Shown here: positions 1 to 12,488 of the stretch, in pieces
Position numbering within the stretch: position 1 is the stretch's first letter
Layout of the letters: each line of letters opens with the position of its first letter
Assembly: GCA_044336965.1 (NCBI GenBank)
Contig: JBIIOL010000001.1
Location: 1 to 32,872 of the forward strand
Source: Pirellulales bacterium
Lineage (GTDB): Bacteria; Planctomycetota; Planctomycetia; Pirellulales; UBA1268
Length of the DNA stretch: 32,872 nucleotides
Direction: 5' to 3'
The notes under the pieces: model-generated
What the model was told of the DNA's origin: nothing
The model's database searches: none
What the model saw: the letters and a program-made list of their open reading frames with translations, nothing else
Position numbers and translations under genes: made by a program

Positions 1-1214
1 TCCTGCGGCACGCCATCGACCTCGGTATAGGTGGCCTTGAGCGCGAAGCCCTGATCGTCGCGGTTATGTTTCTGCAGCAGGATGCCACCCACTCCGACGA
101 CGAGATTGGAACTGGCGTATCCCATCCGTTCGATACGGGCCAGGACTTCCTTGAACCGCTCGTAATAGAAGCCGTCGCCATAGATCAGGCCGACATTCGG
201 ATTGAGAACGCGAAAGCCGCGGGCATTGACCGTACTCCCGAACGTCTCGTCGAGCAGTCGAATCGCCCCCTTGCCCTCCGGCGTGTTGTCCGGGGCGTTC
301 GGGTCGCCGCAGAGGATATGCTCCGGGTTGCCGGAATCCGGCCGGAACACGACCCGGCCATCCCGCTCCATGATCCGGTTCCGAAGCCGCCCGCAGAAGT
401 TCGTGAGCACGTTCCAGAGGTTGTACGTATCGCTCACGATCGACACGACGCCCGAGGGATAGAGGTCGAGCATCCGCTCAAACGCCATGAACTCCCCATC
501 ACGGCCATAGCTGCACATCACGGAATGCTCCGATGCCGGGACGCTGACGCCGATCGGTTCCTCGCCATCGTAGAACTTCGACAGCATCCAGACCGCGGGC
601 ACCGTGTCACCACCAAGAAAATTGATGAGGTGGGCGGCCCCACTGAGCGATGCGGTCTCCTCGCTCGATACGCCACGGTAGCCGAAGTCGTGCACTTGAT
701 AGGGGAGGTGGGTCTCGTCGTCGCACGTCCGCCGGGCGTACTCGAGGACCAACTGATAGAGCTTCTGGCTGTAACTCGCCACGGTCGTGGTGTTCCAAAC
801 CTTCAGCAGGAGGCTCTCGAAGAAGCCGACCTGCCAATAGGCTTCGGGGTCCGTGTTCGTGATCGTCATCAGGACGTTCTGCACCGGAACGACGCTTCCC
901 TCCGGCACTGCCTTCACGTCGAGCGACACGTACCCGCGGTCGACGAGGCGATCGAACTTCTCCCGAATGTCAGGACTCGGGTCGGAGCCGAGGATCATCT
1001 TCCGGTAGTGGTAGTACTCCTCGACGTTTTCGCGGGTGATCCGCTGCGTGAGGTAGCGGTCGAGAAAATACTGGAGCCCGAAAAACACGCTGTAGGGAAG
1101 CACTTTACCGGAGCGGGCCATCAGGTAGCTGTAGACCTTGTTGGTGCCAGGTCGGTACTGTTCCATGTGCCCCATCTTGTAGACGTCGGTGCACAGCAAC
1201 GGGTTGTGGAACAC
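1..1214 (-). CDS. nadV: Nicotinamide phosphoribosyltransferase (NAMPT/NadV family). N-terminal part only; the C-terminus runs off the window edge. GTG start at 1214.
   Basis: Minus-strand translation begins VFHNPLLCTDVYKMGHMEQYRPGTNKVYSYLMARSG...GYRGVSS...IYGDG. This matches the NAMPT N-terminal signature (NxLLxTDSYK) and the core. An in-frame TGA lies just upstream of the GTG. The long plus-strand ORF 66..1829 is its antisense shadow. Confidence 0.8.
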   Translation of the reverse strand, partial: MFHNPLLCTDVYKMGHMEQYRPGTNKVYSYLMARSGKVLPYSVFFGLQYFLDRYLTQRITRENVEEYYHYRKMILGSDPSPDIREKFDRLVDRGYVSLDVKAVPEGSVVPVQNVLMTITNTDPEAYWQVGFFESLLLKVWNTTTVASYSQKLYQLVLEYARRTCDDETHLPYQVHDFGYRGVSSEETASLSGAAHLINFLGGDTVPAVWMLSKFYDGEEPIGVSVPASEHSVMCSYGRDGEFMAFERMLDLYPSGVVSIVSDTYNLWNVLTNFCGRLRNRIMERDGRVVFRPDSGNPEHILCGDPNAPDNTPEGKGAIRLLDETFGSTVNARGFRVLNPNVGLIYGDGFYYERFKEVLARIERMGYASSNLVVGVGGILLQKHNRDDQGFALKATYTEVDGVPQ

Positions 1215-1256
1215 GGCAGGATCCTTTGGAAAGAGGGTCTGAGCGGGCAGCAGGTG

Positions 1257-2147
1257 TCAGACATGAAACTCCACGAGCCCCGGGCACGGTCGATGCGAGC
1301 GAATCGAGTCGGTCGTGAATACACCGTCGAGCCGACCTTCGTCGTCTCGGCAGGCCAGCAGGCGGTCGAGGCCGTTCGAAAAGATGCCGTGGGTCACGTA
1401 GAGGTGCACCGCCGCTGCGCCGTGATGGCGCAGCATCTTGGAAAGTTCCAGGAACGTACGGCCGCCGTCGCAGATGTCGTCCACGATCAGGCAGGTCTGG
1501 CCTGCCACATCGCCGCCGGCCTCGAGTTGCATGCCGATGATCGCACCGCGGTTCGCCACGTCCCTGGTCTTCGTCGCCTGGACGGTGGCAACGTGAGGAC
1601 ACCGGCTCTCCAGTGCCCGGAGGATGGCGTGCACGCGCTTGGCGGCTCCGGCGTCGGGGATGACGACCCGCGTCGCCCCGCTCTGCGCGACCGCCTCGGC
1701 AACGTGCTCGTGGATTGGCAGCGGACGGCACCGGTCGATCACGGCGGCAGTGACGTCGGAATGGGGATCGAGCACCAGGACCTCACCGAACCCGCATGCG
1801 TTGATGACATCGGCCAGAACGCGGATTGAGAGCGGGTCGCCGGGGACCATCCGCCGGTCTTGCCTCGCGTAAGGCACGTATGGCATGAACAGGTCGAGCA
1901 CGACCCCGGGGGCCCCCCCGCGGATCGCATCGGCAGTCAGCAGGACAGCCAGGAGATCATCCGACGAGTTGACCCGGTGGGCGACCAGAGCACGCCGACT
2001 CTCCTGGGGCAGGTCGGGGAACTGAACATGGACTTCGCCCCCTGCGAATACATGCCGCCGTGGTCGGATGACCCGCGTCGAAGGGATGCTGCGGCAGATC
2101 GCCGGTTCCCAATCGGGGTCGATCACCGAGATCAAGTCCCAAGTCAT
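1257..2147 (-). CDS. Ribose-phosphate pyrophosphokinase-like protein (Prs paralog, 297 aa). It sits directly upstream of nadV and is co-oriented with it.
   Basis: Carries MPYVPYARQDRR (Prs ...YARQDRR motif) and LIVDDICDGGRTFLELSKML...YVTHGIFS (PRPP-binding DDxxDTGGT loop). The N-terminus diverges and lacks the canonical housekeeping Prs start. A 42-nt gap separates it from the nadV start. Confidence 0.75.
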   Translation of the reverse strand: MTWDLISVIDPDWEPAICRSIPSTRVIRPRRHVFAGGEVHVQFPDLPQESRRALVAHRVNSSDDLLAVLLTADAIRGGAPGVVLDLFMPYVPYARQDRRMVPGDPLSIRVLADVINACGFGEVLVLDPHSDVTAAVIDRCRPLPIHEHVAEAVAQSGATRVVIPDAGAAKRVHAILRALESRCPHVATVQATKTRDVANRGAIIGMQLEAGGDVAGQTCLIVDDICDGGRTFLELSKMLRHHGAAAVHLYVTHGIFSNGLDRLLACRDDEGRLDGVFTTDSIRSHRPCPGLVEFHV

Positions 2148-2170
2148 CGTGGGCGGTTCCTTTCTCTGCC

Positions 2171-2185
2171 GTGGGGCTTCCCCAC
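2171..2185. promoter_or_regulatory. Perfect short hairpin gtgggg-ctt-ccccac in the 5' leader of the prs-like/nadV unit (also within the divergent intergenic region).
   Basis: 6-bp inverted repeat with a 3-nt loop, read directly. Function unknown. Confidence 0.25.
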
Positions 2186-2400
2186 ACAGCATCGTCTCTA
2201 TCCCTTTTTCGAGGGATCCTACCCCGCTGTTTGCCGCGTCGCAACGCTGCCCCACAAAACGGTTTCTGCGACCGCTCCCCCCCAGTAAACGGGCACCGTG
2301 CCCGCGTTCGCTCCCACCGTCCAGCCAGGAAGCGTTTTTGCAAGACCCCTTCACCGTGTTATTCTTCCCCCCTAAGAGAGAGCGAATTTCTGCGCCATCG

Positions 2401-2406
2401 AGGAGG
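2401..2406 (+). promoter_or_regulatory. Shine-Dalgarno AGGAGG, 5 nt upstream of the GTG start at 2412.
   Basis: Seen in sequence: cgaggaggtttccGTG. Confidence 0.6.
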
Positions 2407-2411
2407 TTTCC

Positions 2412-4466
2412 GTGTCCCCCCACAACGTCATCTGGCTGGTTGCAGCGCTGGCCGCGGTCGTGCCCCTGCTCCTGTTTTTGTTTCTGTTCCTCGTCAACGT
2501 CGGCTCCGACCGAATCGCCATCCTTGAGCGTCGCTTCCTCGGCAAGGAACTCGCTCCCGGCCGGGTATTCGCCCTGGCGGGCGAGGTCGGATCGAAGGCG
2601 GCCTATCTCGCACCGGGACTGCACCTCGTCGCATGGCCAATCGTCCGAGTCGTCGGCAAGCCCCGGTTCGTCACGATCGGCGCCAACGAACTCGGTATCG
2701 TCGAGGCGACTGACGGAGCGCCTCTTCAGTCGGGCCGAATCTTCGCCGATGATCCGGCCGGTGAACACCACGGCGATTTCCAGCGGCCGGTGGATTTTCT
2801 CACGCACGGGGGCATCCGCGGCAAGCAGTTGCGATTCCTGACGAACGGCACCTTCAAGATTCATCCGGGGCTCTTCAAGGTGACCAAGATTGCGAAGACG
2901 GTCGTGCCGGAGGGCAAGATTGGCGTGATCACGGCCGCCGACGGCGCTCCATTGGCCCCGGGCAAATTGCTCGGCCGCAGCGTGCAGGATCATGACAACT
3001 TTCAAAAGGCCGAGTCCTTTCTTCTGCAAGGCGGCCAGAAGGGGCCGCAAATGGATTTCCTGCGGCCCGGCACCTACAACATCAACACGGAGATCTTCGC
3101 CGTCGAGATCCGCGACGCGGTCCAAGTCGATGAGAACGAAATCGGAATCGTCGACGCGCGCGACGGACTCGCTATGGCCCGCAGCGACGTCGTGGTACAT
3201 ACTCCGGCCGAGGTCAACAGTTTCCAGGACGGGCAACTGTTCCTTGACCACGGCGGGAATCGCGGCCCCCAGGAAAACATCCTCACGCCGGGCACGTACT
3301 ACATCAATCCGTACATGTTCGCCGTATCCAAGCGCAAGCAGACCCTTGTGCGGCAAGGCGAGGTGTCCGTCCTGATCTCGAACATCGGAAAGGATCCGGC
3401 CGAGTTCACCGACACGGCGAAACAACCACACGCCGACGACTCCGGAACGCGGCACGTCGTTCCGAAGGGCTTCCGCGGCATCCAGCGAGAGGTGCTCGGC
3501 CCCGGCGCCTACAACATCAACCCGCTGGCATACTCGGCGATCATCATCCCCACCACGACTCGCTCCGTCGACTGGAGTGAAGAGAAGACGAAGCCTGCCG
3601 AGGCGGCCGCCTTCGACCCCTTCCAGGTCGTGTCACACGACGGCTTCGAGATGAAGGTGGAGGTCCGATGCCAGTACCGCATTCTGCCCGAGAACGCTCC
3701 CTACATGGTGCAGAAGATTGGCTCGATCGACGAACTCGAGAAAAATGTGATCCATCCGCAGATAGACGGCATCTTTCGCGCACAGGTTTCGCGATCCCCC
3801 GCGATCGCCTACCAGCAGAACCGCGCCGAAGAGCAGAAGGCCGCGGAGGAGGCGGTCCGGCAGGATCTCTCAAAATACCGGGTGGAGGTGGTGTCCGTCA
3901 TGATCACCAACATCCACCTGCCCGAGGCGCTGATGAAGACCACCCAGCAGAAGAACCTCGCCGAGCAGGAAAAGTCGATGTTCGACGCCAAAAAAGATGC
4001 CGAACAGAGGCGTATCGAATATGAAAAAACGAAGGCGGAGGCCGACGCGCAGGTCAGGATCATCACAGCCGAGTCGGGCATCAAGGTGGCACAGCACGAG
4101 GCCCGCCAGGTCGAGGAACGGGCGAAGGGCGAGGCCTCGCGGGTGCGGATGATTGCCGAGGCCGATGCCGCCAAGACCAAGCAGGTGGGCGACGCCGAGG
4201 CGAGCGTGGTGCAGTCAAAGGGCGAGGCGCAGGCAAAGGCGTATCGCGATCAAGTCGACGCCCTGACAGCACAGGGGGTCACCACCGTCGAAGTCATGAA
4301 GGCCATTTCGGCAGCGGGCCTCAAGATCACACCCGACATTCTCGTGGCGGGCGGAGGGGAATCCACTGACACCGGCGGACTCGTCAGCGTGTTGCTCGCA
4401 CAACTCGTGCAGAGAAAGCAGATCGACACGAACCCGTCTGTGGCTGTTCCCGGAACCATCCCCTAG
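2412..4466 (+). CDS. SPFH/band-7 (flotillin-like) membrane protein of 684 aa. It has an N-terminal transmembrane helix, four internal ~90-aa repeats and a C-terminal coiled coil.
   Basis: N-terminal hydrophobic stretch VIWLVAALAAVVPLLLFLFLFLV. Repeats of G(G)xRGxQxxxLxPGTYxINPxxFxV occur four times. The SPFH-like core reads YRVEVVSVMITNIHLPEALMK. The E/K/A/Q-rich C-terminus is flotillin-like. Confidence 0.65.
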   Translation: MSPHNVIWLVAALAAVVPLLLFLFLFLVNVGSDRIAILERRFLGKELAPGRVFALAGEVGSKAAYLAPGLHLVAWPIVRVVGKPRFVTIGANELGIVEATDGAPLQSGRIFADDPAGEHHGDFQRPVDFLTHGGIRGKQLRFLTNGTFKIHPGLFKVTKIAKTVVPEGKIGVITAADGAPLAPGKLLGRSVQDHDNFQKAESFLLQGGQKGPQMDFLRPGTYNINTEIFAVEIRDAVQVDENEIGIVDARDGLAMARSDVVVHTPAEVNSFQDGQLFLDHGGNRGPQENILTPGTYYINPYMFAVSKRKQTLVRQGEVSVLISNIGKDPAEFTDTAKQPHADDSGTRHVVPKGFRGIQREVLGPGAYNINPLAYSAIIIPTTTRSVDWSEEKTKPAEAAAFDPFQVVSHDGFEMKVEVRCQYRILPENAPYMVQKIGSIDELEKNVIHPQIDGIFRAQVSRSPAIAYQQNRAEEQKAAEEAVRQDLSKYRVEVVSVMITNIHLPEALMKTTQQKNLAEQEKSMFDAKKDAEQRRIEYEKTKAEADAQVRIITAESGIKVAQHEARQVEERAKGEASRVRMIAEADAAKTKQVGDAEASVVQSKGEAQAKAYRDQVDALTAQGVTTVEVMKAISAAGLKITPDILVAGGGESTDTGGLVSVLLAQLVQRKQIDTNPSVAVPGTIP

Positions 4467-4533: not shown

Positions 4534-5496
4534 TTGAACGACACCACGAACAAGCGGTCATTGAAGACGATGCCATCGGAGTCTCGCAACGTGAAGGCCT
4601 TGGTCTGCCGCAGGGGACGCGTGACGTGCGAATCAAGAATCGCACCGGAGGTCGGACATCCAACAGATGTCCGCATTCGTGTCACCTGTGCTGCGATTTG
4701 CCGAACGGATGCCTACGTCGCCAGCGGAAGGATTCACGTGTCCGACGGCAGGGTGCCGGGGCACGAATTCACTGGAATCGTGGACTCCGCGGGCGCGGCG
4801 GTAACACGGGTGCGGCCCGGTGACCGAGTCGTGGTGAACCCGCTGATCGCCTGCGGCGACTGCCCGAGTTGCCGGAGCGCCCGGCCCCATCAATGTGTCG
4901 CTACGCGTTTTCTGGGGATCGATTGTGACGGCGCATTTGCAGAACTCGTCGTCGTTGACGATTCCATGGTGCACGTGCTGCCGGCAGGCATTCCCGACAC
5001 CGTGGGCGCCTACGCCGAGCCGCTTGCTGCGACGATGGCCGTTCTCGACGCTGACTTGCCGCCGGGGGCGAGCATCGCTGTCACGGGTACCGGCCGCATC
5101 GCCACCCTGACGGAATTCATCCTCCGAGAGTTTGGCCACGATGTCCACGCGGCCACCAGCGACGCCAACGAATCTGACGTGGTCGTCGAAACGAATTTGT
5201 GCTCGTCGAATCTCGAGTCGACCATTCGACTGCTGAAACCCGGCGGATTGCTGGTCATGAAGAGCCGTCAGCCCGAAACGGTCGAGATCTCTCCACTGGT
5301 ATGCATCCCCTGGCGGCTCAGGATCGAGTGCGTGTATTACGCGGACTTCGGCCTCGCTCTCGGACATCTCGCGCGATGGTCGCCGCAACTGCAACGATTC
5401 GCCGGAAGCGAGTGGCCACTTGCCCAGCACGAGCAGGCATTCGCCGAGGCATGCGAAGACGAGACGGCGAAGGTCTACTTTCGCCCCAACGGGTGA
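4534..5496 (+). CDS. Zinc-dependent alcohol dehydrogenase (MDR superfamily). The start is uncertain: TTG at 4534 or ATG at 4570.
   Basis: Contains GHEFTGIV (catalytic Zn His/Glu) and CGDCPSC (structural Zn cysteines). A KALVC motif lies near the N-terminus. Confidence 0.75.
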   Translation: MNDTTNKRSLKTMPSESRNVKALVCRRGRVTCESRIAPEVGHPTDVRIRVTCAAICRTDAYVASGRIHVSDGRVPGHEFTGIVDSAGAAVTRVRPGDRVVVNPLIACGDCPSCRSARPHQCVATRFLGIDCDGAFAELVVVDDSMVHVLPAGIPDTVGAYAEPLAATMAVLDADLPPGASIAVTGTGRIATLTEFILREFGHDVHAATSDANESDVVVETNLCSSNLESTIRLLKPGGLLVMKSRQPETVEISPLVCIPWRLRIECVYYADFGLALGHLARWSPQLQRFAGSEWPLAQHEQAFAEACEDETAKVYFRPNG

Positions 5497-5503
5497 ACTG
5501 AAT

Positions 5504-7309
5504 ATGTGTGGAATCGCAGCCATCCGCACACCTCGTCGGGACGGGATTGGGCACGCCTTGAGCGCCGCACTGACGGCTATGCACCACCGGGGGCCCGATG
5601 ACACCGGCGTCTACGTTTCTTCACGGGCGGACGTGGGCCTCGGATCCGCGAGACTGGCCATCATGGATCCTGCCAATGGTCATCAACCCGTTGCAAACGA
5701 GGATCGCGGCATCCATGCCGTCGTGAACGGCGAGTTCTATGAAAGTGACCGTCTGCGAAAAGCACTCGAAGACAGGGGGCATCGCGTCCGCACTGGCAGC
5801 GACAGTGAACTGCTCGTGCACCTCTACGAGGAACACGGCACGGGATGCCTGCGATTCCTCCGGGGTGAGTTCGCGTTCGTGTTGCTCGACGAATCGGCCA
5901 ACCGGCTCTTCCTCGCCTGCGATCGCTTCGCCATCAAGCCGCTTCACTACGCACGATCCCGTGGCGGTTGGATCATCGCTTCGGAAATCAAGGCGCTCAT
6001 TGCCATGGGGATGGAACCCCGGTGGGACCTGGCCGCCTTGCAGCAGTCCCTTGCATTCCAGTACGGAAAGCCGGGCTCGACGCTCTTCGAAGGTGTCAGG
6101 CAACTGCGTCCCGCCCACGCGATGGTCCTGGATGGTGATGATTGCAAGGAGTTCGTCTACTGGGAGCCCTGCTTTGAACCTGATCCGACCATCACCGCCG
6201 AGGCGATCGGTGCCGCCCTTCGTGAGGCGGTACACCTGCGACTGCGGGCCGACGTCCCCATGGCATGCACGCTGAGCGGCGGATTGGACTCCAGCGCGGT
6301 TGCGGCGATATCGGGTATTCGTGACTGTTTCTGCGTTCGGTTCGACGCCCCTGAATACGACGAAGGCCCGCAGGTGTTGGAGGATGGTCCGAGTGATGTG
6401 CGAATCCATCAGGTCCCCGTGACGCGTCGCGATCAGGTGATGCATCTGGAAGATGCGGTGCGACACAGTGAGGGATTGGCCATCAACGGCCAGTTGGTCG
6501 GCAAGTTTCTCTTGTCTCGCGCCATCCGGGACGCCGGGTTCAAAGTGGTCCTCGCGGGCGAAGGGGCTGACGAAGCGTTTCTCGGCTACGCGCACCTCCA
6601 GCAGGATTACACCGACACGCCACCGCAGATTGCGTTGCAGCAGGGCATCATGCTGCCCGCTCCGGGAGAGTCTTTTCCCTGGCGCATGCCGACGTGGCTC
6701 GAGCGTGTTCCCACATTCCTGCAGGCGAAACTGGCCACGGGCCGTCATGCAGCCGCATTGCTCGCCCACCCGCCGAACCCGCAGACGATCCTCGACGACT
6801 GCCTCGGCGGCATCGACTTGCCGTCGGGCCCATTCGTGCGCCGGAGCGCGTGGTTGTGGACCCGCATGGCGCTGGCGGGCTACATTCTTCGTACGCTTGG
6901 CGACGGTGCCGAGATGGCCCACTCCGTCGAGGCCAGACTCCCATTCCTCGATCACGAACTCTTCGCGGTCGCCGCGAGGATTCCGCCGCCGGCACTCCTC
7001 GACCATGAACATACAAAGCTGGCGCTTCGCGAGGCGTTGCGTGGGATCGTGCCGGAGACGGTCCGCACGCGCAAAAAGCATCCCTTTCTCGCCCCACCGC
7101 TCGACGGCGATCAGGCAGTCGACGATTTCGTCCAGGATACGCTCGCCAGCACGGCATGTCGCGAACTGCCGCTCTTCGACCATCGAGCCGTTCGACGATG
7201 GGCTGCTGCGCGATTCCGGCTTCCCGATGCCGATCGCCATCGGCTGGATCCGGTTCTGATGCAACTTCTCACCGCAACGCTGCTCCAACGATGCTTTCGC
7301 ATGACATGA
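5504..7309 (+). CDS. Asparagine synthetase-type class II glutamine amidotransferase (AsnB family) with an N-terminal Cys nucleophile.
   Basis: Starts MCGIAAI. Carries SGGLDSS (PP-loop ATP pyrophosphatase motif) and the typical AsnB core FVLLDE/IKPLHY. The ATG is at 5504, 7 nt after the ADH stop. Confidence 0.85.
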   Translation: MCGIAAIRTPRRDGIGHALSAALTAMHHRGPDDTGVYVSSRADVGLGSARLAIMDPANGHQPVANEDRGIHAVVNGEFYESDRLRKALEDRGHRVRTGSDSELLVHLYEEHGTGCLRFLRGEFAFVLLDESANRLFLACDRFAIKPLHYARSRGGWIIASEIKALIAMGMEPRWDLAALQQSLAFQYGKPGSTLFEGVRQLRPAHAMVLDGDDCKEFVYWEPCFEPDPTITAEAIGAALREAVHLRLRADVPMACTLSGGLDSSAVAAISGIRDCFCVRFDAPEYDEGPQVLEDGPSDVRIHQVPVTRRDQVMHLEDAVRHSEGLAINGQLVGKFLLSRAIRDAGFKVVLAGEGADEAFLGYAHLQQDYTDTPPQIALQQGIMLPAPGESFPWRMPTWLERVPTFLQAKLATGRHAAALLAHPPNPQTILDDCLGGIDLPSGPFVRRSAWLWTRMALAGYILRTLGDGAEMAHSVEARLPFLDHELFAVAARIPPPALLDHEHTKLALREALRGIVPETVRTRKKHPFLAPPLDGDQAVDDFVQDTLASTACRELPLFDHRAVRRWAAARFRLPDADRHRLDPVLMQLLTATLLQRCFRMT

Positions 7310-8061
7310 AGACGACCGAACCGTGGTGGGAGTCCCTGTACGACGATCACGTCGCCGACGTGCTGTTGGAACGAACAACTCCGTCGGAGATCAGCCTCGC
7401 CACCGACTTTCTGATGGAGGTTCTCGACCTCCGCGAAGGTTCGATGGTACTCGATCAATGCTGCGGCACGGGGCGGATTGCGTGGAGTCTCGCCGCACGC
7501 GGAATATCCGTGCTGGGAGTGGACATCATCCCTTCCTACATCGAGCGGGCACGCCGTCGCGATACGATCGTGCCGCTCACGCCCCGCTTCGAGACGGCGG
7601 ATGCGTTCGAATTCAGTGCCAGCCCTTTCCGCGATGCCGCCTTCAACTGGTGGACGAGCTTCGGCTATGCCCGGGATGACGCAGACAACCTGCGGATGCT
7701 CCGTCGCGCGAGGGAGTCGATCCGCTCGGGTGGATCCTACGTTGTCGACTTCATGAACATACCGGGCATCCACAGGCATTTCCTGCCTCGGGTGACGACG
7801 TGCGCCGGCGACGTGACGCTCGTGCGAGACACCACGCTCGACCTTGCCGACAACGTGATGCGCAAGACGTGGACGTTCACGTTCGGCGACGGTCGCCAGA
7901 TCGTCCGTCGCAGTGCGGTGCGACTGTACGACCCGGCCGCCTTGCACAGCCTGTTCCTCGAGGCGGGTTTCGACACCATCCGACTCTACGGCGACGTCGA
8001 TGCGTCGCCACTGACCGTTGAAAGCCCGCGGTGCATCATCTACGGGAGAAATCCGCCTTGA
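7291..8061 (+). CDS. Class I SAM-dependent methyltransferase. An alternative ATG at 7306 would overlap the asnB stop as ATGA.
   Basis: VLDQCCGTGRIA is a motif I glycine-rich SAM-binding loop. The fold length is ~250 aa. The start overlaps asnB. Confidence 0.7.
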   Translation: MLSHDMKTTEPWWESLYDDHVADVLLERTTPSEISLATDFLMEVLDLREGSMVLDQCCGTGRIAWSLAARGISVLGVDIIPSYIERARRRDTIVPLTPRFETADAFEFSASPFRDAAFNWWTSFGYARDDADNLRMLRRARESIRSGGSYVVDFMNIPGIHRHFLPRVTTCAGDVTLVRDTTLDLADNVMRKTWTFTFGDGRQIVRRSAVRLYDPAALHSLFLEAGFDTIRLYGDVDASPLTVESPRCIIYGRNPP

Positions 8062-8084
8062 ACACGTCTTTCTTCCAGCCGGAG

Positions 8085-8900
8085 ATGCCGTCCGACTCCC
8101 GCACCACCCGAGACCGGATCTTCGCTGGTGCCGTCTACTTGAAATCAGCCGGGCCGGCATCTCTCGCTTTCGTCGCCAGCGTGCTGCAACTGATGCGGGA
8201 AAGACTCGAAACGGACGACATTCGCACGGCCCACGACAGATGGAGTGCCGACGAGTGGTTCACGCGTATCGGATCGCTTCGCCGGACCATATACGTCGAG
8301 CCGGAGTTTCAATCGCATGTTCGAGCCGTCGTGGCGGAGTGCGGGTTCGATACCGAACGCGTTGTCTTCGATCCGGCGCGGTTGCGTGTCGTACAGCCCG
8401 GCGGCTATCGCAACCCGCTTGCCGCACCGGTGTACTACCCGCACCGAGACACGTGGTATGCCCATCCCCAGTGCATGATCGTGGGGTGGCTGCCACTGCA
8501 CGATCTCGCACCCGAGGAAACCTTCGAGTTTTACCCCGACTGTCTTTCGAGGCCCGTGTCAAACGACTCAGAACGCTTCGACTACAACGACTGGATCAAG
8601 GACGGTCCGTCGCTGAAGATCGGCTGGCAGGAGCGGGACTCAGGGGTGACCGCCCGATACCCTCGGGCGCTGGAGACGACGGTGCCGGAGCGGGCGGAGC
8701 GATTCTCGTGCCATGCGGGTGACACACTTGTGTTTTCCGGCGCTCACTATCACCGGACGCTGCCTCACGACCTGCTGCAGACACGCTACAGTCTCGACTT
8801 CCGAATCGTAGACCGGGATGACATCGCCGCTGGTCGGGGCGCACCGAATGCGGACAATCGTTCACGGGGGACCACGCTGAATGACTATGTGGGGTTCTGA
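8085..8900 (+). CDS. PhyH-like Fe(II)/2-oxoglutarate-dependent dioxygenase (putative hydroxylase).
   Basis: YYPHRDTWY (HxD) together with a distal GAHYHRT His gives a 2-His-1-carboxylate facial triad arrangement. GGAG lies 4 nt upstream of the ATG at 8085. Confidence 0.55.
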   Translation: MPSDSRTTRDRIFAGAVYLKSAGPASLAFVASVLQLMRERLETDDIRTAHDRWSADEWFTRIGSLRRTIYVEPEFQSHVRAVVAECGFDTERVVFDPARLRVVQPGGYRNPLAAPVYYPHRDTWYAHPQCMIVGWLPLHDLAPEETFEFYPDCLSRPVSNDSERFDYNDWIKDGPSLKIGWQERDSGVTARYPRALETTVPERAERFSCHAGDTLVFSGAHYHRTLPHDLLQTRYSLDFRIVDRDDIAAGRGAPNADNRSRGTTLNDYVGF

Positions 8901-11502
8901 GTTCGAGAATCCGTTCGTTCTTGCACTGTCTCGCGTGGTCGCGACCCACGGGATGAAGACTGCTATCGAGACCTCCGGTAGCCGGCGTCTGTGCTACCGA
9001 GAGTTGTGGGACGCGGCCATCGCCATGAGCGGCACCATGCGCTCGCACGGCATCGCTGATGGCTTCTGCGTGGCCGTTGTGTTTCCGCGTTCACCGGAGT
9101 TCGTGACGGCCCTGATCGCCTGCTGGATGTGCGGTGCGGTAGCACTCCTTCTGGACTCCGACCTGCCGCACGCACGGCGTCGCAAGATCCTGCGGCAGGT
9201 GCGTCCCCACTTCGTACTCGACCGGAACGGATGCCGTCCCTCCCCCTTCCCGAACGAGACGGCCTTTCCGGCCAGGCAGGCGCCCGCGTACCTGATCTAT
9301 ACCTCGGGATCTACCGGGAGACCGAAGGGCGTGCTGGTGTCCCATACCGGTCTCATGCCGGTGCTCCAGGCGCAGATCGAAACGTTCGAGCTCGATGACG
9401 AGAGCCGATGTCTCTGGGTGCATGGCACTGGCTTCGATGCTTCCCTGTCGGACATCGGCACCACTCTCCTCGCAGGGGCGACGCTGTGCATGGAGGAGGA
9501 ACCGCTGCGAGATTTGGCCGTGCTCGGTCGCTGGGGAATCACACACGTCGACTTGCCGCCGTCGCTCCTGCCGTGGCTCGACGAACGCGCACGCCTGCAT
9601 ACGATCGTGATCGGTGGCGAAGTATGCCCGACCGCAGTCGTGCGTCGGTGGGCGGAACGGACGAATCTCGTGTGCGTGTACGGACCCACGGAAGCGACGA
9701 TCTGCACGAGCATGATTCGCTGTGGCCCGGACTGGGATCGGCCTTGGATCGGGACCCCGTTGCCGGGTGTCACGTATTCCGTACACGCCACTGACGGAAG
9801 CGAAGCTTCGACTGGAGAACTGTGGATCAGCGGATCGACGGTGGCCCTGGGTTATCCGTGGGAAACGGAACTGACTGCGGAGCGATTCGTGAACGCGGGC
9901 CGTACGTTCCGCACCGGTGATCTCGTCAGGCGTCATGGTCGCGAGTCGTACGAGTTTCTCGGCAGACTGGACCGACAGTTCAAGCTCAACGGACGACTGA
10001 TCTGTCCGGAAGAGGTCGAACTGGCGCTGCTCGAAACGGGACTGGTGCAACGCGCGCGGGTTCTGCGCTACGGTCGGGGCACCCATGCCGCGTTGGGCGC
10101 GAGCGTGGAGTCCACCGTCGGTTCCGAAATCCTCGGTGCGAGGCTGGGCCAGACACTCCCCTCGTGGATGGTCCCGACGTGCTGGGACACGACGAAAGCG
10201 ATTCCAGAGACCGCCAACGGCAAGCCGGATGACGCATCCATCCGCGAACGCCTCGCCTGGCGGGAGACCTGCGAAACGGAACCAAACGACGGCGATGAAA
10301 GGGCCATCTGCCGCCTGATGGCAAAGTGCTTGCAGCGCACCACGGTGGCTGCCCATGAAGATTTCTTCACCGACCTCGGTGGGGACTCGCTCGCCGTGGT
10401 GGCCTTCACGTCTCTGGCCGCCGGAGCCGGTCTGGAAATCACCCCGGAAGCACTCTCTCTGGGTCGCACTGCGTCGGGGGTCGCGGCCATGATGCGTGCG
10501 CACACAACCGAGGCCCGTGCTCCGCACGAGTTCGCAGCCGATGTCGAATTGCCGTGGACGTTCCCGAATCAGCAGTCCGAAGCTCCCCGCCGGCTCCTGC
10601 TCACGGGTGCAACTGGCTTCCTGGGTTCGATCCTCTCCACGACACTCGACGGCGAGGTGCTGCCGCTGTCGAGAGCCAACGGCGACGTTGGCAGGCCGTT
10701 CTTCGGGTGGAATGAAGCGGATTGGCGGGCGCATGCCGACACCGTCGACACGGTTGTTCATCTCGCGGCGGATGTCCGTCTCTTCGCACCGTACAGCGAG
10801 TTGGCACGGACACAGGTCGCGGGTACACGTGAAGTCCTGCGATTCTGCGCGACCGGGCGACCCAAGACACTCCATTACGCCTCGACCCTTTCCGTATTCG
10901 TCGATGCCGACCCGCGGGACAACCTCTGTCGGGAATCGGATGGACGCCGCCAGGTGTCGTGCCTTTACGGCGGATATGCCCAGTCAAAATGGGTGGCGGA
11001 ACAACTCGTGCTGCGCGCCATGGAGAGTGGATTGCGGTCGGGCATTCATCGTCTCGGATTGTTGGCACCCTGTACGCGGACCGGCGTCCGCCCGCGGAAC
11101 GACTGGTTCACACTGGCACTTCCAGGGCTCCTGGAGCGATCACGTGATGCGGACCCTGAACTGGCGTTTGACCTCACCCCGGTCGACTACGCAGCCCGAG
11201 TGATGGCGTGGCTCATCAACAAGTGCCACGAAGGCATTTTCCACATCGCGGCGCCACGACCGACGACACTGCGCGACCTCGAGTCCACTGGTCTGCGTCC
11301 ACGTCGTGGACACGACAGTCCGGTGACTGAACTCGCCGCGAGTGGAAAGCATCGGTCGCTCGGCGTTTTGAAGTGCACGCACACTCGATTCGATCGCACG
11401 CGGACAGAGCAGGCTCTCGCCGGGAGCGGGATTGTTTTTCCGGAAATCGACAATACCTATCTACAGACGTGCCTCCAGCACGCTGAAAGTGGTGTCGAAT
11501 GA
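8881..11502 (+). CDS. NRPS-like single-module enzyme with adenylation, peptidyl-carrier (T) and terminal thioester reductase (R) domains (A-T-R). Predicted to be an acid- or amino-acid-reducing enzyme that forms an aldehyde.
   Basis: A-domain cores: LIYTSGSTGRPKGV (A3), YGPTE (A5), GELWISG (A6), FRTGD (A7), NGK (A10). Carrier: FFTDLGGDSLAVV (phosphopantetheine Ser). R domain: LLTGATGFLGSIL (Rossmann) and YGGYAQSKWVAE (YxxxK). It overlaps the upstream gene by 20 nt and the downstream gene by ATGA. Confidence 0.85.
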   Translation: MTMWGSEFENPFVLALSRVVATHGMKTAIETSGSRRLCYRELWDAAIAMSGTMRSHGIADGFCVAVVFPRSPEFVTALIACWMCGAVALLLDSDLPHARRRKILRQVRPHFVLDRNGCRPSPFPNETAFPARQAPAYLIYTSGSTGRPKGVLVSHTGLMPVLQAQIETFELDDESRCLWVHGTGFDASLSDIGTTLLAGATLCMEEEPLRDLAVLGRWGITHVDLPPSLLPWLDERARLHTIVIGGEVCPTAVVRRWAERTNLVCVYGPTEATICTSMIRCGPDWDRPWIGTPLPGVTYSVHATDGSEASTGELWISGSTVALGYPWETELTAERFVNAGRTFRTGDLVRRHGRESYEFLGRLDRQFKLNGRLICPEEVELALLETGLVQRARVLRYGRGTHAALGASVESTVGSEILGARLGQTLPSWMVPTCWDTTKAIPETANGKPDDASIRERLAWRETCETEPNDGDERAICRLMAKCLQRTTVAAHEDFFTDLGGDSLAVVAFTSLAAGAGLEITPEALSLGRTASGVAAMMRAHTTEARAPHEFAADVELPWTFPNQQSEAPRRLLLTGATGFLGSILSTTLDGEVLPLSRANGDVGRPFFGWNEADWRAHADTVDTVVHLAADVRLFAPYSELARTQVAGTREVLRFCATGRPKTLHYASTLSVFVDADPRDNLCRESDGRRQVSCLYGGYAQSKWVAEQLVLRAMESGLRSGIHRLGLLAPCTRTGVRPRNDWFTLALPGLLERSRDADPELAFDLTPVDYAARVMAWLINKCHEGIFHIAAPRPTTLRDLESTGLRPRRGHDSPVTELAASGKHRSLGVLKCTHTRFDRTRTEQALAGSGIVFPEIDNTYLQTCLQHAESGVE

Positions 11503-12488
11503 CAGCGCCAGCGGCGAAAACAGGAATGCTGTTGGGCAAGTTTCTGCCGCCGCACTGCGGGCACCTTTATCTTGGCGCCTTTGCGAGGCATTTCGTCGAA
11601 GATCTCACCATCGTCGTAGGGACCCTGGAACGCGAGCCGATCCCGGGCAGACTGAGATTCGAGTGGATGCGTCAACTGTTTCCCGGGGTGAACGTCGTGC
11701 ACCTCGCCGAGGAACTGCCGCAGGATCCGTCGGAGCATCCGGACTTCTGGCGGCTCTGGCAGACCTCACTGCTGCGAATCCTGCCCTCTCCCCCAGACGT
11801 CATTTTCGCGTCCGAACCGTACGGGGAGAAACTTGCAGAGGTGCTCGGAGGCCGGTTCATCCCCGTGAATCCTGATCGCAGCATCCATCCTGTCAGCGGC
11901 ACGGCTGTTCGCGAGAACCCGTGGGCGCACTGGGATCAACTTCCGCCTCCCGTGCGTGCCTACTATGCTCGACGAGTGTGCGTCTTCGGTCCGGAATCCA
12001 CAGGCAAGTCGACCCTCGTCCGGCAACTCGCTGAACACTTTCGCACGGTCGCCGTCCCGGAATATGCCCGCACGCTCCTCGAATGGCGGCGTGGGCGGCT
12101 AGACCCGGAGGATTTGCCTGACATCGCCCGTGGGCAGGCGGCCAGTGAGGACGCGCTCGCACCCTTGGCGAATCGCGTTGTCTTCATGGACACCGACCCG
12201 CTGGCGACGGTGGTATGGTCCGATTTTCTTTTCGGGTCCGTGGACCCGGAGGTTCAGACGCTCGCACGATCACGGACGCCGGACCTGTATCTGCTGACGG
12301 ATGTCGACGTGCCGTGGATACCCGATCCGGTGCGGTACCTGCCGGATGAGCGAGCGAGCTTCCTCGCCCGCTGCGAGGAGGCACTCACATCGCGAAACCG
12401 ACGCTTCGTCAGGATCAGTGGAAGTTGGAACGAACGCTTCGCGATTGCCGTTCAAGCCGTGGAGTCGCTCGGGATCGCGGCACCTTGA
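11499..12488 (+). CDS. NadR-type bifunctional NMN adenylyltransferase / ribosylnicotinamide kinase that lacks the N-terminal HTH domain.
   Basis: GKFLPPHCGHLYL (HxGH nucleotidyltransferase motif) and SGTAVR (SxTxxR). Then VFGPESTGKSTL (Walker A) and VFMDTD (Walker B-like), arranged as in the NadR RNK domain. The start overlaps the A-T-R stop as ATGA. Confidence 0.75.
   Translation: MTAPAAKTGMLLGKFLPPHCGHLYLGAFARHFVEDLTIVVGTLEREPIPGRLRFEWMRQLFPGVNVVHLAEELPQDPSEHPDFWRLWQTSLLRILPSPPDVIFASEPYGEKLAEVLGGRFIPVNPDRSIHPVSGTAVRENPWAHWDQLPPPVRAYYARRVCVFGPESTGKSTLVRQLAEHFRTVAVPEYARTLLEWRRGRLDPEDLPDIARGQAASEDALAPLANRVVFMDTDPLATVVWSDFLFGSVDPEVQTLARSRTPDLYLLTDVDVPWIPDPVRYLPDERASFLARCEEALTSRNRRFVRISGSWNERFAIAVQAVESLGIAAP

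What the first reader, a model, noticed from the sequence alone, without database searches (positions are those of the whole stretch)
1..2147. Divergent Prs-like gene immediately upstream of nadV: a candidate NAD salvage or NAD reconstitution (NARP1-like) pair
The pyrophosphokinase has the PRPP-binding loop (VDDICDGGRT) and the YARQDRR motif. It lacks the conserved housekeeping Prs N-terminus and is otherwise divergent. It is co-directional with a NAMPT-family gene and sits 42 nt upstream of it. Established knowledge gives two precedents. Bacteria frequently pair nadV with a prs-like gene. Phage NARP1 systems use a Prs homologue (ADPR-pyrophosphate synthetase) together with a NAMPT homologue (nicotinamide ADPR transferase) to rebuild NAD+ after immune NAD depletion. 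Sequence alone does not tell whether this is Prs with NadV or an Adps/Namat-type pair, so the question is worth testing.
Basis: partly seen in the sequence, partly recalled or inferred. Interest (0 to 1): 0.55.

Follow-up and report, generated by a model that had tools for sequence, protein, structure and literature searches.

The report
Adps-like kinase paired with clamp-less NadV
A planctomycete chromosome carries a two-gene operon resembling the phage NAD+-rebuilding pathway NARP1: the first enzyme has every sequence hallmark of the ADP-ribose pyrophosphokinase Adps, but the second belongs to an uncharacterised NAMPT-family branch that lacks the published adenine-binding clamp of Namat.

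Summary
On the minus strand, a 296-aa Prs-like gene (2147..1257) lies 42 nt upstream of a NAMPT-family gene (starts at 1214 and runs off the window).

The Prs-like protein is not housekeeping Prs. It falls in the Adps clade (NJ bootstrap 0.99 against 8 other Prs). It has the Adps donor-site loop (CDGGRTF, identical to a Felixounavirus Adps), the hairpin Lys/Ile, and no C-terminal helices.

The NadV keeps the whole catalytic core but fails the published Namat signature: it reads GGILLQKHNRD, not GS-aromatic-x-x-x-aromatic-x-TRD. It belongs to a third NAMPT-family clade ("GG type", bootstrap 0.97), separate from the validated Namats and from the Nampt references.

In all 24 genomic contexts I could see, GG-type genes sit next to an Adps-like gene, and two further proteins are fusions. 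In 6 of 15 phage contigs they also sit beside ADP-ribose-processing Macro or NADAR genes. Cultured phages and plasmids hold no close relative (at most 43% identity).

Best reading (about 0.58): a clamp-less NARP1 variant that rebuilds NAD+ from ADP-ribose and nicotinamide, resident in a bacterial chromosome. Main rival (about 0.28): PRPP-to-NMN salvage completed by a NadR-like NMNAT 9 kb away. Only enzyme assays can decide.

The parts
1257..2147 (-). Adps-like (Prs-family) gene, 296 aa plus stop
   Evidence: ORF and start context. Pfam PF13793, PF00156 and PF14572. Scores 238 bits to phage PHROG 619, against 135 bits to TIGR01251, and falls far below every housekeeping Prs equivalog cutoff. 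Lies in the Adps clade with bootstrap 0.99.
1..1214 (-). 5' part (404 codons) of the NAMPT-family gene nadV (GG-type clade); full length is 488 aa
   Evidence: GTG start matches the start of homologue P0121. NF006629 scores 468 bits against a cutoff of 405, and PF18127 plus PF04095 are found. Full length comes from a contig with the identical neighbour gene.
1215..1256 (-). 42-nt intercistronic spacer with AAGGA ribosome-binding site at 1226-1222
   Evidence: Read directly from the sequence. No terminator-like site lies in the spacer.
1455..1484 (-). PP loop VDDICDGGRT (residues 222-231), followed by F232: the Adps-type ATP-donor site
   Evidence: Identical to the wV8 (Felixounavirus) Adps and the Shewanella Adps-like loop. 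Canonical Prs have D-D-x-[IV]-[DSN]-[TS]-[GA]-x-T followed by L/I/M/A. The rule comes from the ICP1 Adps structures, PMC13586617.
1545..1571 (-). Start of the catalytic beta-hairpin KTRDVANRG; K193 corresponds to ICP1 Adps K185. I203 (just 3' of this, nt 1539-1541) corresponds to I194.
   Evidence: Alignment to ICP1 Adps. K185A abolishes ADPR-PP formation in ICP1 Adps (PMC13586617).
1851..1871 (-). YARQDRR motif; R95 corresponds to ICP1 R87, which contacts the ADPR adenine side. The preceding P92 is the Adps state (canonical Prs have G).
57..89 (-). Region equivalent to the Namat selectivity-clamp helix: GGILLQKHNRD (residues 376-386). Non-aromatic, as in Nampt.
   Evidence: Validated Namats have GS[FY]T[YT]Q[YFHC]xTRD, Xcc Nampt has GGALLQKVDRD. 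The motif is defined in PMC12774641.
1092..1118 (-). Region equivalent to the Namat selectivity-clamp loop: ARSGKVLPY (residues 33-41). K37 aligns with SPbetaL1 Namat R40. The loop is 2-4 residues shorter than in Namats and 1 longer than in Xcc Nampt.
267..317 (-). ILCGDPNAPDNTPEGKG insertion after RPDSG. It is shared with the Namat clade and absent from the Nampt references.
2148..2411 (.). 264-bp divergent intergenic region between the operon and the Band_7 gene; presumed promoter region
   Evidence: No sigma-70-like match was found, and only one weak palindrome at 2329-2352. No NrtR gene or homologue is present in the window.

Best explanation
The two genes form a chromosomal, minimal NARP1-type NAD+ reconstitution operon of a previously undescribed variant.

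Step 1 (inferred): the Prs-like enzyme is an ADP-ribose pyrophosphokinase (Adps). ADP-ribose lies across the old ATP and ribose-5-P groove. ATP binds at the remodelled PP loop (C226-D-G-G-R-T-F232). K193 on the beta-hairpin assists transfer of the beta,gamma-pyrophosphate to the distal ribose, giving ADPR-PP.

Step 2 (inferred): the downstream NAMPT-family enzyme has an intact Nampt/Namat catalytic core. It replaces the pyrophosphate with nicotinamide and so gives NAD+ directly. Because it lacks the aromatic adenine clamp of canonical Namat, it probably has lower or broader donor selectivity and may also accept PRPP.

In a free-living planctomycete, with no prophage context, the likely role is recycling of the ADP-ribose and nicotinamide released by NAD-consuming enzymes. 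Those enzymes could be housekeeping ones or the cell's own NADase immune effectors.

Shown here: gene structure, family placement, signature residues and gene linkage. Inferred: both substrates and the physiological role.
For: (1) The kinase is in the Adps clade. The clade holds 97 Adps-like sequences, including ICP1 and SPbetaL1 Adps (assayed in vitro) and wV8, a Felixounavirus proxy for Bas63. It separates from 8 canonical or other Prs with NJ bootstrap 0.99. The kinase scores 238 bits to PHROG 619 and fails all housekeeping Prs equivalog cutoffs.

(2) At every position that separates Adps from PRPS in the ICP1 Adps structures (PMC13586617), the window protein has the Adps state: C226, G228, F232, I203, K193, P92, and no alpha11-alpha12 tail.

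(3) SPbetaL1 Adps gave no product with the PRPS-type substrate (the text writes 'PRPP and ATP'; the Fig. 2D legend specifies ribose-5-phosphate) (10.1101/2024.02.11.579819).

(4) GG-type NadV genes are linked to an Adps-like gene in every context seen: 15 distinct phage-like contigs and 9 bacterial loci including the window. Two more are natural fusions with Adps-type PP loops. No full-size NMNAT lies beside them. By contrast, the Nampt-type phage genes of ACP17 and B23 sit beside an NMNAT.

(5) Six of the 15 phage contigs carry Macro or NADAR genes in or next to the pair, and one has the order Adps-like, Macro, NadV. This is the NARP1-AP layout, in which a Macro phosphatase feeds ADPR to Adps (10.64898/2026.01.28.702374).

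(6) Seven of the 8 bacterial GG-type loci recovered from genomes have the ADPR-responsive regulator NrtR upstream (PMC2330246).

(7) The window kinase is closer to Adps-like proteins partnered with canonical Namats (43-45% identity, including the planctomycete Zavarzinella) than to those partnered with GG-type enzymes in phages (27-32%). This suggests partners have been exchanged within one pathway.

(8) The GG clade shares the CGDP...KG insertion and the IYGD segment with Namats, not with Nampts.
Against: The NadV fails the published Namat signature. At all eight AMP- or adenine-contacting positions where the Namat clade differs from the Nampt references (SPbetaL1 numbering 190, 362, 391-394, 396, 398) it lacks the Namat residue. 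At six of them it carries the exact Nampt-reference residue: G190, G362, G391, L393, L394, K396.

In SPbetaL1 Namat the double clamp mutant R40A/F392G loses about 16-fold NAD+ synthesis and all anti-defence activity, yet keeps NMN synthesis (PMC12774641).

A NadR-type NMN adenylyltransferase is encoded 9 kb away, which would complete a PRPP/NMN route.

The window has no Macro, NADAR or NrtR gene. Positions inside the Adps clade are unresolved (bootstrap 0.15-0.66). No member of the GG clade has been assayed.
Confidence: 0.58

Rival explanations
1. Classical PRPP-dependent nicotinamide salvage. The Prs paralogue makes a dedicated pool of PRPP from ribose-5-P. NadV acts as a true Nampt and makes NMN. 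A NadR/NadM-type NMN adenylyltransferase, possibly the NadR-like gene at 11499-12488, then makes NAD+.
For: The NadV entrance residues are Nampt-like and NF006629 is passed. A NadR-type NMNAT/RNK (TIGR01526, 271 bits, full-length match) lies in the same window. This is how prs-nadV operons were interpreted historically (PMC2330246). Clamp-less Namat mutants keep NMN synthesis.
Against: The kinase has the Adps donor-site signature and clade membership, not the PRPS ones. A characterised Adps does not use ribose-5-P.

GG-type genes in phages travel with Adps-like and Macro/NADAR genes, not with NMNAT genes.

The NadR-like gene is on the other strand, in a different and translationally coupled operon with NRPS-like, AsnB-like and methyltransferase genes. 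It is absent from the related Pirellulaceae locus L012.
Confidence: 0.28
2. Dual-output variant. The kinase makes ADPR-PP, while the clamp-less transferase takes both ADPR-PP (giving NAD+) and cellular PRPP (giving NMN) at comparable rates. The nearby NadR-like enzyme mops up the NMN.
For: The sequence character is mosaic: Namat-like insertions with a Nampt-like entrance. KVP40 Nampt can make NAD+ from ADPR-PP although it prefers PRPP, and SPbetaL1 Namat can make NMN from PRPP. A NadR-like gene is in the window.
Against: There is no direct evidence. The NadR-like gene is not conserved next to the pair.
Confidence: 0.1
3. Phage or prophage anti-defence cargo, or a decaying remnant, that happens to lie in this contig.
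For: The closest NadV relatives outside the window's own clade (60-69% identity) are in phage-like contigs.
Against: The flanking genes are typical planctomycete chromosomal genes (PSD/PSCyt, DUF1552, sulfatases, a two-component system) with no phage genes. GC of the pair is 0.63 against 0.65 for the rest of the window. Both ORFs are intact. A clade of relatives at 54-97% identity (kinase) and 76-90% (NadV) exists, including a Pirellulaceae MAG.
Confidence: 0.04

Closest known systems
NARP1 (Adps + Namat) of phages SPbetaL1, Bas63, ICP1 and DyoEdafos, and the bacterial NARP1 of Paenibacillus foliorum (10.1101/2024.02.11.579819; PMC12774641; PMC13586617)
   Same: The gene order is the same: a Prs-family kinase followed by a NAMPT-family transferase. 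The kinase lies in the same clade and has the same PP-loop, hairpin and truncated C-terminus. The transferase has an identical catalytic core and shares the CGDP...KG insertion. Chromosomal bacterial copies outside prophages are already reported.
   Different: The transferase lacks the GS-aromatic-x-x-x-aromatic-x-TRD clamp helix and has a shorter clamp loop. It forms a separate clade (bootstrap 0.97, against 1.00 for the Namat clade). No member of that clade has been assayed.
NARP1-AP (Adps, Macro phosphatase Adpp, Namat; Vibrio phage Gary) (10.64898/2026.01.28.702374)
   Same: Phage relatives of the window NadV have the same three-gene layout with a Macro protein (L106-108, L100, L123).
   Different: The window itself has no Macro gene, and the transferase is GG-type.
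NrtR-regulated prs-nadV operons of Shewanella, Acinetobacter, Chromobacterium and Cytophaga (PMC2330246)
   Same: A second prs paralogue is co-transcribed with nadV in a bacterial chromosome. Most bacterial relatives found here (70 of 80 loci) have NrtR upstream.
   Different: No NrtR gene or homologue is in the window or in the related Pirellulaceae locus. The Shewanella pairs found here carry a canonical Namat motif (GSYSYQYVTRD), unlike the window.
NARP2 and bacterial NadV-NadM/NadR salvage (Nampt + NMNAT; KVP40; phages ACP17 and B23; Xanthomonas Nampt, PDB 7YQO)
   Same: The active-site entrance is Nampt-like (GGxLLQ...RD, G190, G362, G391). A NadR-like NMNAT is present in the window.
   Different: The immediate partner is an Adps-type kinase, not an NMNAT. 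The NadV is in a different clade and carries Namat-type insertions.

Membership tests
Adps (ADPR-PP synthetase, NARP1 step 1) | Falls in the Adps clade, separate from canonical Prs | tested here: met
   NJ tree of 105 sequences with 200 bootstraps: the Adps-like clade including the window separates from 8 Prs with support 0.99. Placement inside the clade is unresolved.
Adps (ADPR-PP synthetase, NARP1 step 1) | Remodelled PP loop / donor site (ICP1 C215-S220 plus F221) and hairpin residues (K185, I194) | tested here: met
   The window has C226-D-G-G-R-T231, F232, K193 and I203. The loop is identical to the wV8 Adps loop. Canonical Prs have I/V, T/S and L/I/M/A at the same sites (rule).
Adps (ADPR-PP synthetase, NARP1 step 1) | Loss of the C-terminal alpha11-alpha12 module of PRPS | tested here: met
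   The protein ends at ...GLVEFHV, aligned with E. coli Prs ...LPNVRT. The E. coli tail that follows (the last ~25 residues, [24 protein letters not shown]) has no counterpart.
Adps (ADPR-PP synthetase, NARP1 step 1) | Adjacent NAMPT-family gene | tested here: met
   42-nt spacer, same strand.
Adps (ADPR-PP synthetase, NARP1 step 1) | Converts ADPR plus ATP to ADPR-PP and does not use ribose-5-P | not testable with these tools
   Needs an enzyme assay.
Namat (nicotinamide ADPR-transferase, NARP1 step 2) | NAMPT fold with conserved catalytic and NMN-binding residues | tested here: met
   Conserved (SPbetaL1 numbering): D13, Y15, F189, R192, D215, A242, R306, D308, G360, D361, G390, R399, D400.
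Namat (nicotinamide ADPR-transferase, NARP1 step 2) | [quoted passage not shown] | tested here: not met
   The window has GGILLQKHNRD, with I at position 3 and K at position 7. All 23 Namat-clade sequences have S at position 2 and F/Y at position 3.
Namat (nicotinamide ADPR-transferase, NARP1 step 2) | Clamp loop supplying an adenine-stacking residue (R40 or the following residue) | tested here: inconclusive
   K37 aligns with R40, and a Tyr follows 4 residues later. The loop is 2-4 residues shorter than in Namats.
Namat (nicotinamide ADPR-transferase, NARP1 step 2) | Clusters with experimentally validated Namats | tested here: not met
   The window lies in a separate GG clade (bootstrap 0.97). 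The Namat clade has bootstrap 1.00.
Namat (nicotinamide ADPR-transferase, NARP1 step 2) | Prefers ADPR-PP over PRPP | not testable with these tools
   Needs a competition assay.
Nampt / NadV (PRPP-dependent) | Passes the curated NadV model | tested here: met
   NF006629 scores 468 bits against a cutoff of 405, even though the protein is truncated. This model does not separate Namat from Nampt.
Nampt / NadV (PRPP-dependent) | Clusters with validated Nampt and is partnered with an NMNAT | tested here: inconclusive
   It is not in the Xcc/ACP17/B23 group. Its neighbour is an Adps-like gene, not an NMNAT. However, a NadR-like NMNAT lies 9 kb away on the other strand.
Housekeeping class I Prs | Reaches equivalog scores; DTGGT PP loop; regulatory C-terminus | tested here: not met
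   Scores of 66-113 bits against cutoffs of 296-536. Both the PP loop and the C-terminus differ.
Housekeeping class I Prs | Is the only prs gene in the genome | not testable with these tools
   Only a 32.9-kb window and 16-kb contigs are available. No second prs is in the window.
NrtR-regulated prs-nadV operon | NrtR gene or operator next to the operon | tested here: not met
   tblastn with two NrtR proteins finds nothing in the window at E <= 0.1. No convincing operator lies in 2148-2411. The two genes downstream of nadV are outside the window.

The most novel reading that the evidence does not exclude
GG-type NAMPT-family enzymes together with their Adps-like partners form a biochemically distinct NAD+ reconstitution route. 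This group is abundant in uncultured phages and also resident in planctomycete and Bacteroidota chromosomes. Either the enzymes recognise the adenine of ADPR-PP by a mechanism other than the published aromatic clamp, or they are deliberately dual-donor, producing both NAD+ and NMN. In either case the published 'Namat signature' would miss a large share of natural NARP1-like systems. In bacteria the pair would serve housekeeping ADP-ribose recycling rather than anti-defence.
Probability: 0.3. Interest if true: 0.65.

Novelty: new variant of a known kind. Interest (0 to 1): 0.5.

Why it matters
NARP1 is currently recognised by two rules: an Adps-type kinase, and a Namat with an aromatic adenine clamp. 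This locus and its relatives meet the first rule and break the second, yet they keep the tight gene linkage, including fusions, and the ADP-ribose-processing accessory genes expected of NARP1.

If the pair does rebuild NAD+ from ADP-ribose, two things follow. The clamp is not required for the chemistry in nature, and annotation rules and anti-defence finders based on it under-count such systems. If instead the pair makes PRPP and NMN, then the Adps sequence signature does not predict substrate.

Either outcome is informative and can be reached with two purified proteins. The locus also adds a clean, non-prophage, NrtR-less chromosomal example to the open question of what bacterial NARP1-like operons are for.

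Tried and rejected
- **Solved Adps structure.** I looked for one to compare by sequence. The PDB copy holds only PRPS chains, so I used the residue lists in PMC13586617 instead.
- **KVP40 NadV.** I could not retrieve it as a reference. The NMNAT-linked Nampts of phages ACP17 and B23 and Xcc Nampt were used instead.
- **PDB 9KE8/9KEO.** Its origin is unknown: the best phage match is 58%. It falls in the Namat clade with an atypical motif.
- **Second prs gene.** A canonical prs in the same genome could not be checked. None is in the window or in any fetched locus.
- **Synteny.** Synteny with the Pirellulaceae MAG locus L012 is limited to the two genes, so the neighbourhood gives no functional hint.
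- **Promoter, terminator and operator scans of 1-2500.** No promoter-like match; one terminator-like site inside nadV, no more than chance; one weak palindrome.
- **Cultured phages and plasmids.** Neither holds a close GG-type relative: best identities are 42.8% and 42.4%.
- **NARP3.** This is PnuC+NadR and is unrelated to the pair.
- **Small nucleotidyltransferase.** A 139-153 aa protein found near two GG-type loci (L124, L019) is not a consistent partner.
- **Tree limits.** The trees are neighbour-joining with Kimura distances because no ML program was available. Deep nodes inside both clades are unresolved. The NAMPT tree is unrooted, so I cannot say whether the GG clade is sister to Namat or to Nampt.
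- **Structure prediction.** Not run, because the tool returns no coordinates or ligands and so could not settle donor specificity.
Full report
**1. What is in the sequence**

Both genes lie on the minus strand.
- The Prs-like ORF starts at ATG 2147, with GAAAGGAA 8-15 nt upstream, and ends at TGA 1259-1257 (296 aa).
- After a 42-nt spacer containing AAGGA (1226-1222), a NAMPT-family ORF starts at GTG 1214 and runs off the window start. 404 codons are visible.
- Pfam finds Pribosyltran_N, Pribosyltran and Pribosyl_synth in the first protein, and NAMPT_N plus NAPRTase in the second.
- A metagenome contig encoding the identical kinase shows that the NadV is 488 aa and is followed by convergent genes. 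The operon therefore has two genes.
- The 90%-identical homologue P0121 aligns with solved Namat and Nampt chains to about residue 470.

**2. Genomic setting**

The rest of the window is ordinary planctomycete chromosome:
- a Band_7 gene divergent from the operon;
- a plus-strand operon (ADH-like, AsnB-like, methyltransferase, NRPS-like reductase, NadR-like);
- a HisKA_3/LuxR two-component pair;
- two sulfatases;
- PSD/PSCyt and DUF1552 proteins.

There are no phage genes. GC of the pair is 0.63, against 0.65 for the rest of the window. The closest genome record is a Pirellulaceae MAG, with the kinase 59% and the NadV 84% identical. There the pair sits in a different neighbourhood.

**3. The kinase is Adps-type, not housekeeping Prs**

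*Family models.* It reaches only the broad TIGR01251 subfamily model (135 bits against a cutoff of 113). It falls far below every housekeeping Prs equivalog (for example 113 bits against 297). It scores 238 bits to the phage family PHROG 619.

*Pairwise identity.* It is 36-40% identical to Adps of Gram-negative phages and 43-45% identical to its closest bacterial Adps-like proteins. It is 25-29% identical to E. coli, B. subtilis and other Prs.

*Tree.* I built a neighbour-joining tree of 105 sequences with 200 bootstraps. It contained 8 phage Adps, 80 bacterial loci from a scan of GTDB genomes, the window clade, and 8 canonical or other Prs. All Adps-like sequences, including the window, separate from the Prs with support 0.99. 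The window clade itself has support 0.99. Its position inside the Adps clade is unresolved.

*Structural signature.* The structural paper on ICP1 Adps (PMC13586617) shows three things. ADPR lies across the former ATP and ribose-5-P groove. ATP binds at a remodelled PP loop (C215-S220, F221) and a beta-hairpin (K185, I194). The PRPS C-terminal helices alpha11-alpha12 are lost. The window protein has the Adps state at each of these positions:
- C226-D-G-G-R-T231 and F232, identical to the loop of Felixounavirus wV8 Adps and of a Shewanella Adps-like protein;
- K193 and I203;
- P92 before YARQDR;
- no C-terminal tail.

Canonical Prs have I/V, T/S and L/I/M/A at the corresponding PP-loop positions, and they carry the tail.

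**4. The transferase is neither a canonical Namat nor in the Nampt reference group**

All catalytic and NMN-binding residues of SPbetaL1 Namat are conserved.

[quoted passage not shown] In the window this region reads GGILLQKHNRD. For comparison:

| Protein | Clamp-helix region |
|---|---|
| Window NadV | GGILLQKHNRD |
| SPbetaL1 Namat | GSFTYQYNTRD |
| wV8 Namat | GSYTYQYMTRD |
| DyoEdafos Namat | GSFTYQHNTRD |
| Gary Namat | GSFTYQYVTRD |
| Xanthomonas Nampt | GGALLQKVDRD |

The Namat clade differs from the Nampt references at eight AMP- or adenine-contacting positions (190, 362, 391-394, 396, 398). At none of them does the window carry the Namat residue. At six it carries the exact Nampt-reference residue (G190, G362, G391, L393, L394, K396). 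K37 aligns with the clamp-loop residue R40.

An NJ tree of 60 NAMPT-family sequences gives three groups:
- the Namat clade (bootstrap 1.00), which holds all validated Namats and the Bacteroidota and Shewanella partners, every one with the aromatic motif;
- a "GG" clade (bootstrap 0.97), which holds the window;
- the Nampt references: Xcc, and the NMNAT-linked phage genes of ACP17 and B23.

The window is about equidistant from the other two groups.

The GG clade is mosaic. Like Nampt, it lacks the 8-residue insertion after beta2, has the one-residue deletion in ...LL-LK..., and has the Gly-rich entrance. Like Namat, it has the roughly 15-residue CGDP...KG insertion and the P-x-V-G-x-IYGD segment.

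**5. What travels with GG-type genes**

*Bacterial loci.* The genome scan returned 80 loci with an Adps-like gene. Fifty have a canonical-motif Namat within 6 kb (Pedobacter, Flavobacterium, Shewanella, Zavarzinella and others). Eight have an adjacent GG-type gene: the Pirellulaceae MAG, five Pedobacter, one Mucilaginibacter and one Bacteroidetes MAG.

*Phage contigs.* The closest NadV relatives outside the window's own clade (52-69% identity) lie in phage-like contigs. These carry a portal, a terminase, DNA polymerase B, ERF, DnaB and ribonucleotide reductase. All 15 distinct contigs have an Adps-like gene with a DD[ILM]xDGGxTF-type loop (one has Y for the first G) next to the NadV.

*Fusions.* Two of the 150 best cluster representatives are natural Adps-like/NadV fusions with Adps-type loops and GG-type motifs.

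*Accessory genes.* Six of the 15 contigs carry Macro or NADAR genes in or beside the pair. One has the order Adps-like, Macro, NadV, and one has a Nuc_deoxyri_tr2 gene between the two. Macro phosphatases inside NARP1 operons convert ADPR-1''-phosphate to ADPR for Adps (10.64898/2026.01.28.702374). The same accessory families occur in a nine-gene NrtR-controlled operon around a canonical Adps/Namat pair in Pedobacter.

*NMNAT.* No full-size NMNAT lies beside any GG-type gene.

*NrtR.* Seven of the 8 bacterial GG-type loci recovered from genomes have NrtR upstream. NrtR is released from DNA by ADPR (PMC2330246).

*Databases of cultured entities.* Cultured phages and PLSDB plasmids hold nothing closer than 43% identity.

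**6. Interpretation**

The kinase evidence points to ADPR pyrophosphorylation. If ADPR-PP is made, the co-transcribed transferase must use it, or the product is a dead end.

The following all argue that GG-type pairs carry out NARP1 chemistry:
- invariable linkage, and occasional fusion, of GG-type genes with Adps-like genes;
- association with ADPR-producing Macro and NADAR genes rather than with NMNAT genes;
- control by NrtR in Bacteroidota;
- apparent exchange of Namat-type and GG-type partners among related kinases.

Against this stand three points. The transferase's AMP-side residues are Nampt-like at most positions and Namat-like at none. Clamp mutants of SPbetaL1 Namat lose NAD+ synthesis but keep NMN synthesis. 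The window encodes a NadR-type NMNAT/RNK (TIGR01526, 271 bits, full length) 9 kb away, which could complete a PRPP/NMN route. However, that gene is on the other strand, in an unrelated-looking operon, and is not conserved next to the pair.

My estimates are:

| Reading | Confidence |
|---|---|
| Clamp-less NARP1 variant | about 0.58 |
| PRPP/NMN salvage | about 0.28 |
| Dual-donor version | about 0.10 |
| Phage remnant | about 0.04 |

**7. Comparison with what is known, and novelty**

Three things are already known:
- prs-nadV operons (2008);
- phage NARP1 (2024);
- bacterial NARP1 homologues outside prophages (2024, 2026).

What I did not find described in the papers I read is a distinct NAMPT-family clade that is consistently coupled to Adps-type kinases yet lacks the clamp. 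Nor did I find its presence described as a minimal, NrtR-less operon in planctomycetes.

I file it as a new variant of a known kind. Membership in Adps is supported on every testable feature. Membership in Namat fails on two defining features. Membership in the validated Nampt group is inconclusive.

**8. Limits**
- No enzyme data exist for any member of the GG clade.
- The trees are NJ, and the NAMPT tree is unrooted.
- The wV8 proteins stand in for Bas63.
- A second prs gene in this genome could not be looked for.
- Phage status of the uncultured contigs rests on their gene content.

Noticed in passing
window 11499-12488 (+): A 329-aa NadR-type NMN adenylyltransferase plus ribosylnicotinamide kinase without the HTH domain. 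TIGR01526 scores 271 bits (E 1.6e-80, full-length match, below the curated cutoff of 341), and Pfam finds AAA_28. It is the last gene of a translationally coupled plus-strand operon (4534-12488) with ADH_N, AsnB-like, methyltransferase, an unknown gene and an NRPS-like AMP-binding/PP-binding/reductase gene. That is an odd company for an NAD salvage enzyme.
   Followed up: partly
L042 (Pedobacter sp. KACC 23697) 5180-12306; similar layouts in many of L013-L091: A nine-gene ADP-ribose-centred operon: nrtR, Adps-like, Nuc_deoxyri_tr2, ADP-ribosylglycohydrolase, Macro, Tpt1/KptA, Metallophos, a small Adpp-like protein, and Namat (GSFTYQYNTRD). In 50 of 80 bacterial loci the Adps-like gene and a canonical-motif Namat lie within 6 kb, often 1-5 kb apart with such accessory genes between them. 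Seventy of 80 loci have NrtR.
   Followed up: partly
L100, L102, L106-108, L122, L123, L124 (uncultured phage contigs): GG-type NadV/Adps-like pairs in phages are flanked by Macro, NADAR, Nuc_deoxyri_tr2 and, in L122, an inorganic pyrophosphatase. L121 also carries an ART-PolyVal ADP-ribosyltransferase gene.
   Followed up: partly
P0250 (766 aa) and P0261 (779 aa), from the representative search: Natural fusions of an Adps-like domain (PP loops DDLCDGGRSF and DDMCDGGRTF) with a GG-type NAMPT domain, in both domain orders. Several other representatives of 750-1050 aa have the NAMPT domain split or extended by unknown inserts.
   Followed up: partly
PDB 9KE8/9KEO (chain sequence seen): A solved NAMPT-family chain of unstated origin with an atypical clamp motif, GAQTYQRNTRD. 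It falls in the Namat clade next to the SPbetaL1 group, and its best match in the phage collection is only 58%.
   Followed up: partly
L019 (Pedobacter cryoconitis) 8349-12074 and L124 830-1249: A small (139-153 aa) CTP_transf_like nucleotidyltransferase, weakly similar to the NMNAT of phage B23. It occurs near GG-type pairs in one bacterium and one phage. L019 also has a 220-aa Pribosyltran and a second Nudix gene nearby.
   Followed up: no
window 2412-4466 (+): A 684-aa Band_7/SPFH protein with a long N-terminal extension, divergently transcribed from the operon. The Band_7 domain covers only residues 354-536, and there is no NCBIfam match.
   Followed up: no
L096 (Azospirillum brasilense plasmid p3) 928-3451: A different Prs paralogue (35% identical to E. 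coli Prs, with a canonical-type PP loop) sits directly downstream of a PncB-type nicotinate phosphoribosyltransferase. This is a separate, PRPP-type prs/NAD-salvage pairing.
   Followed up: no
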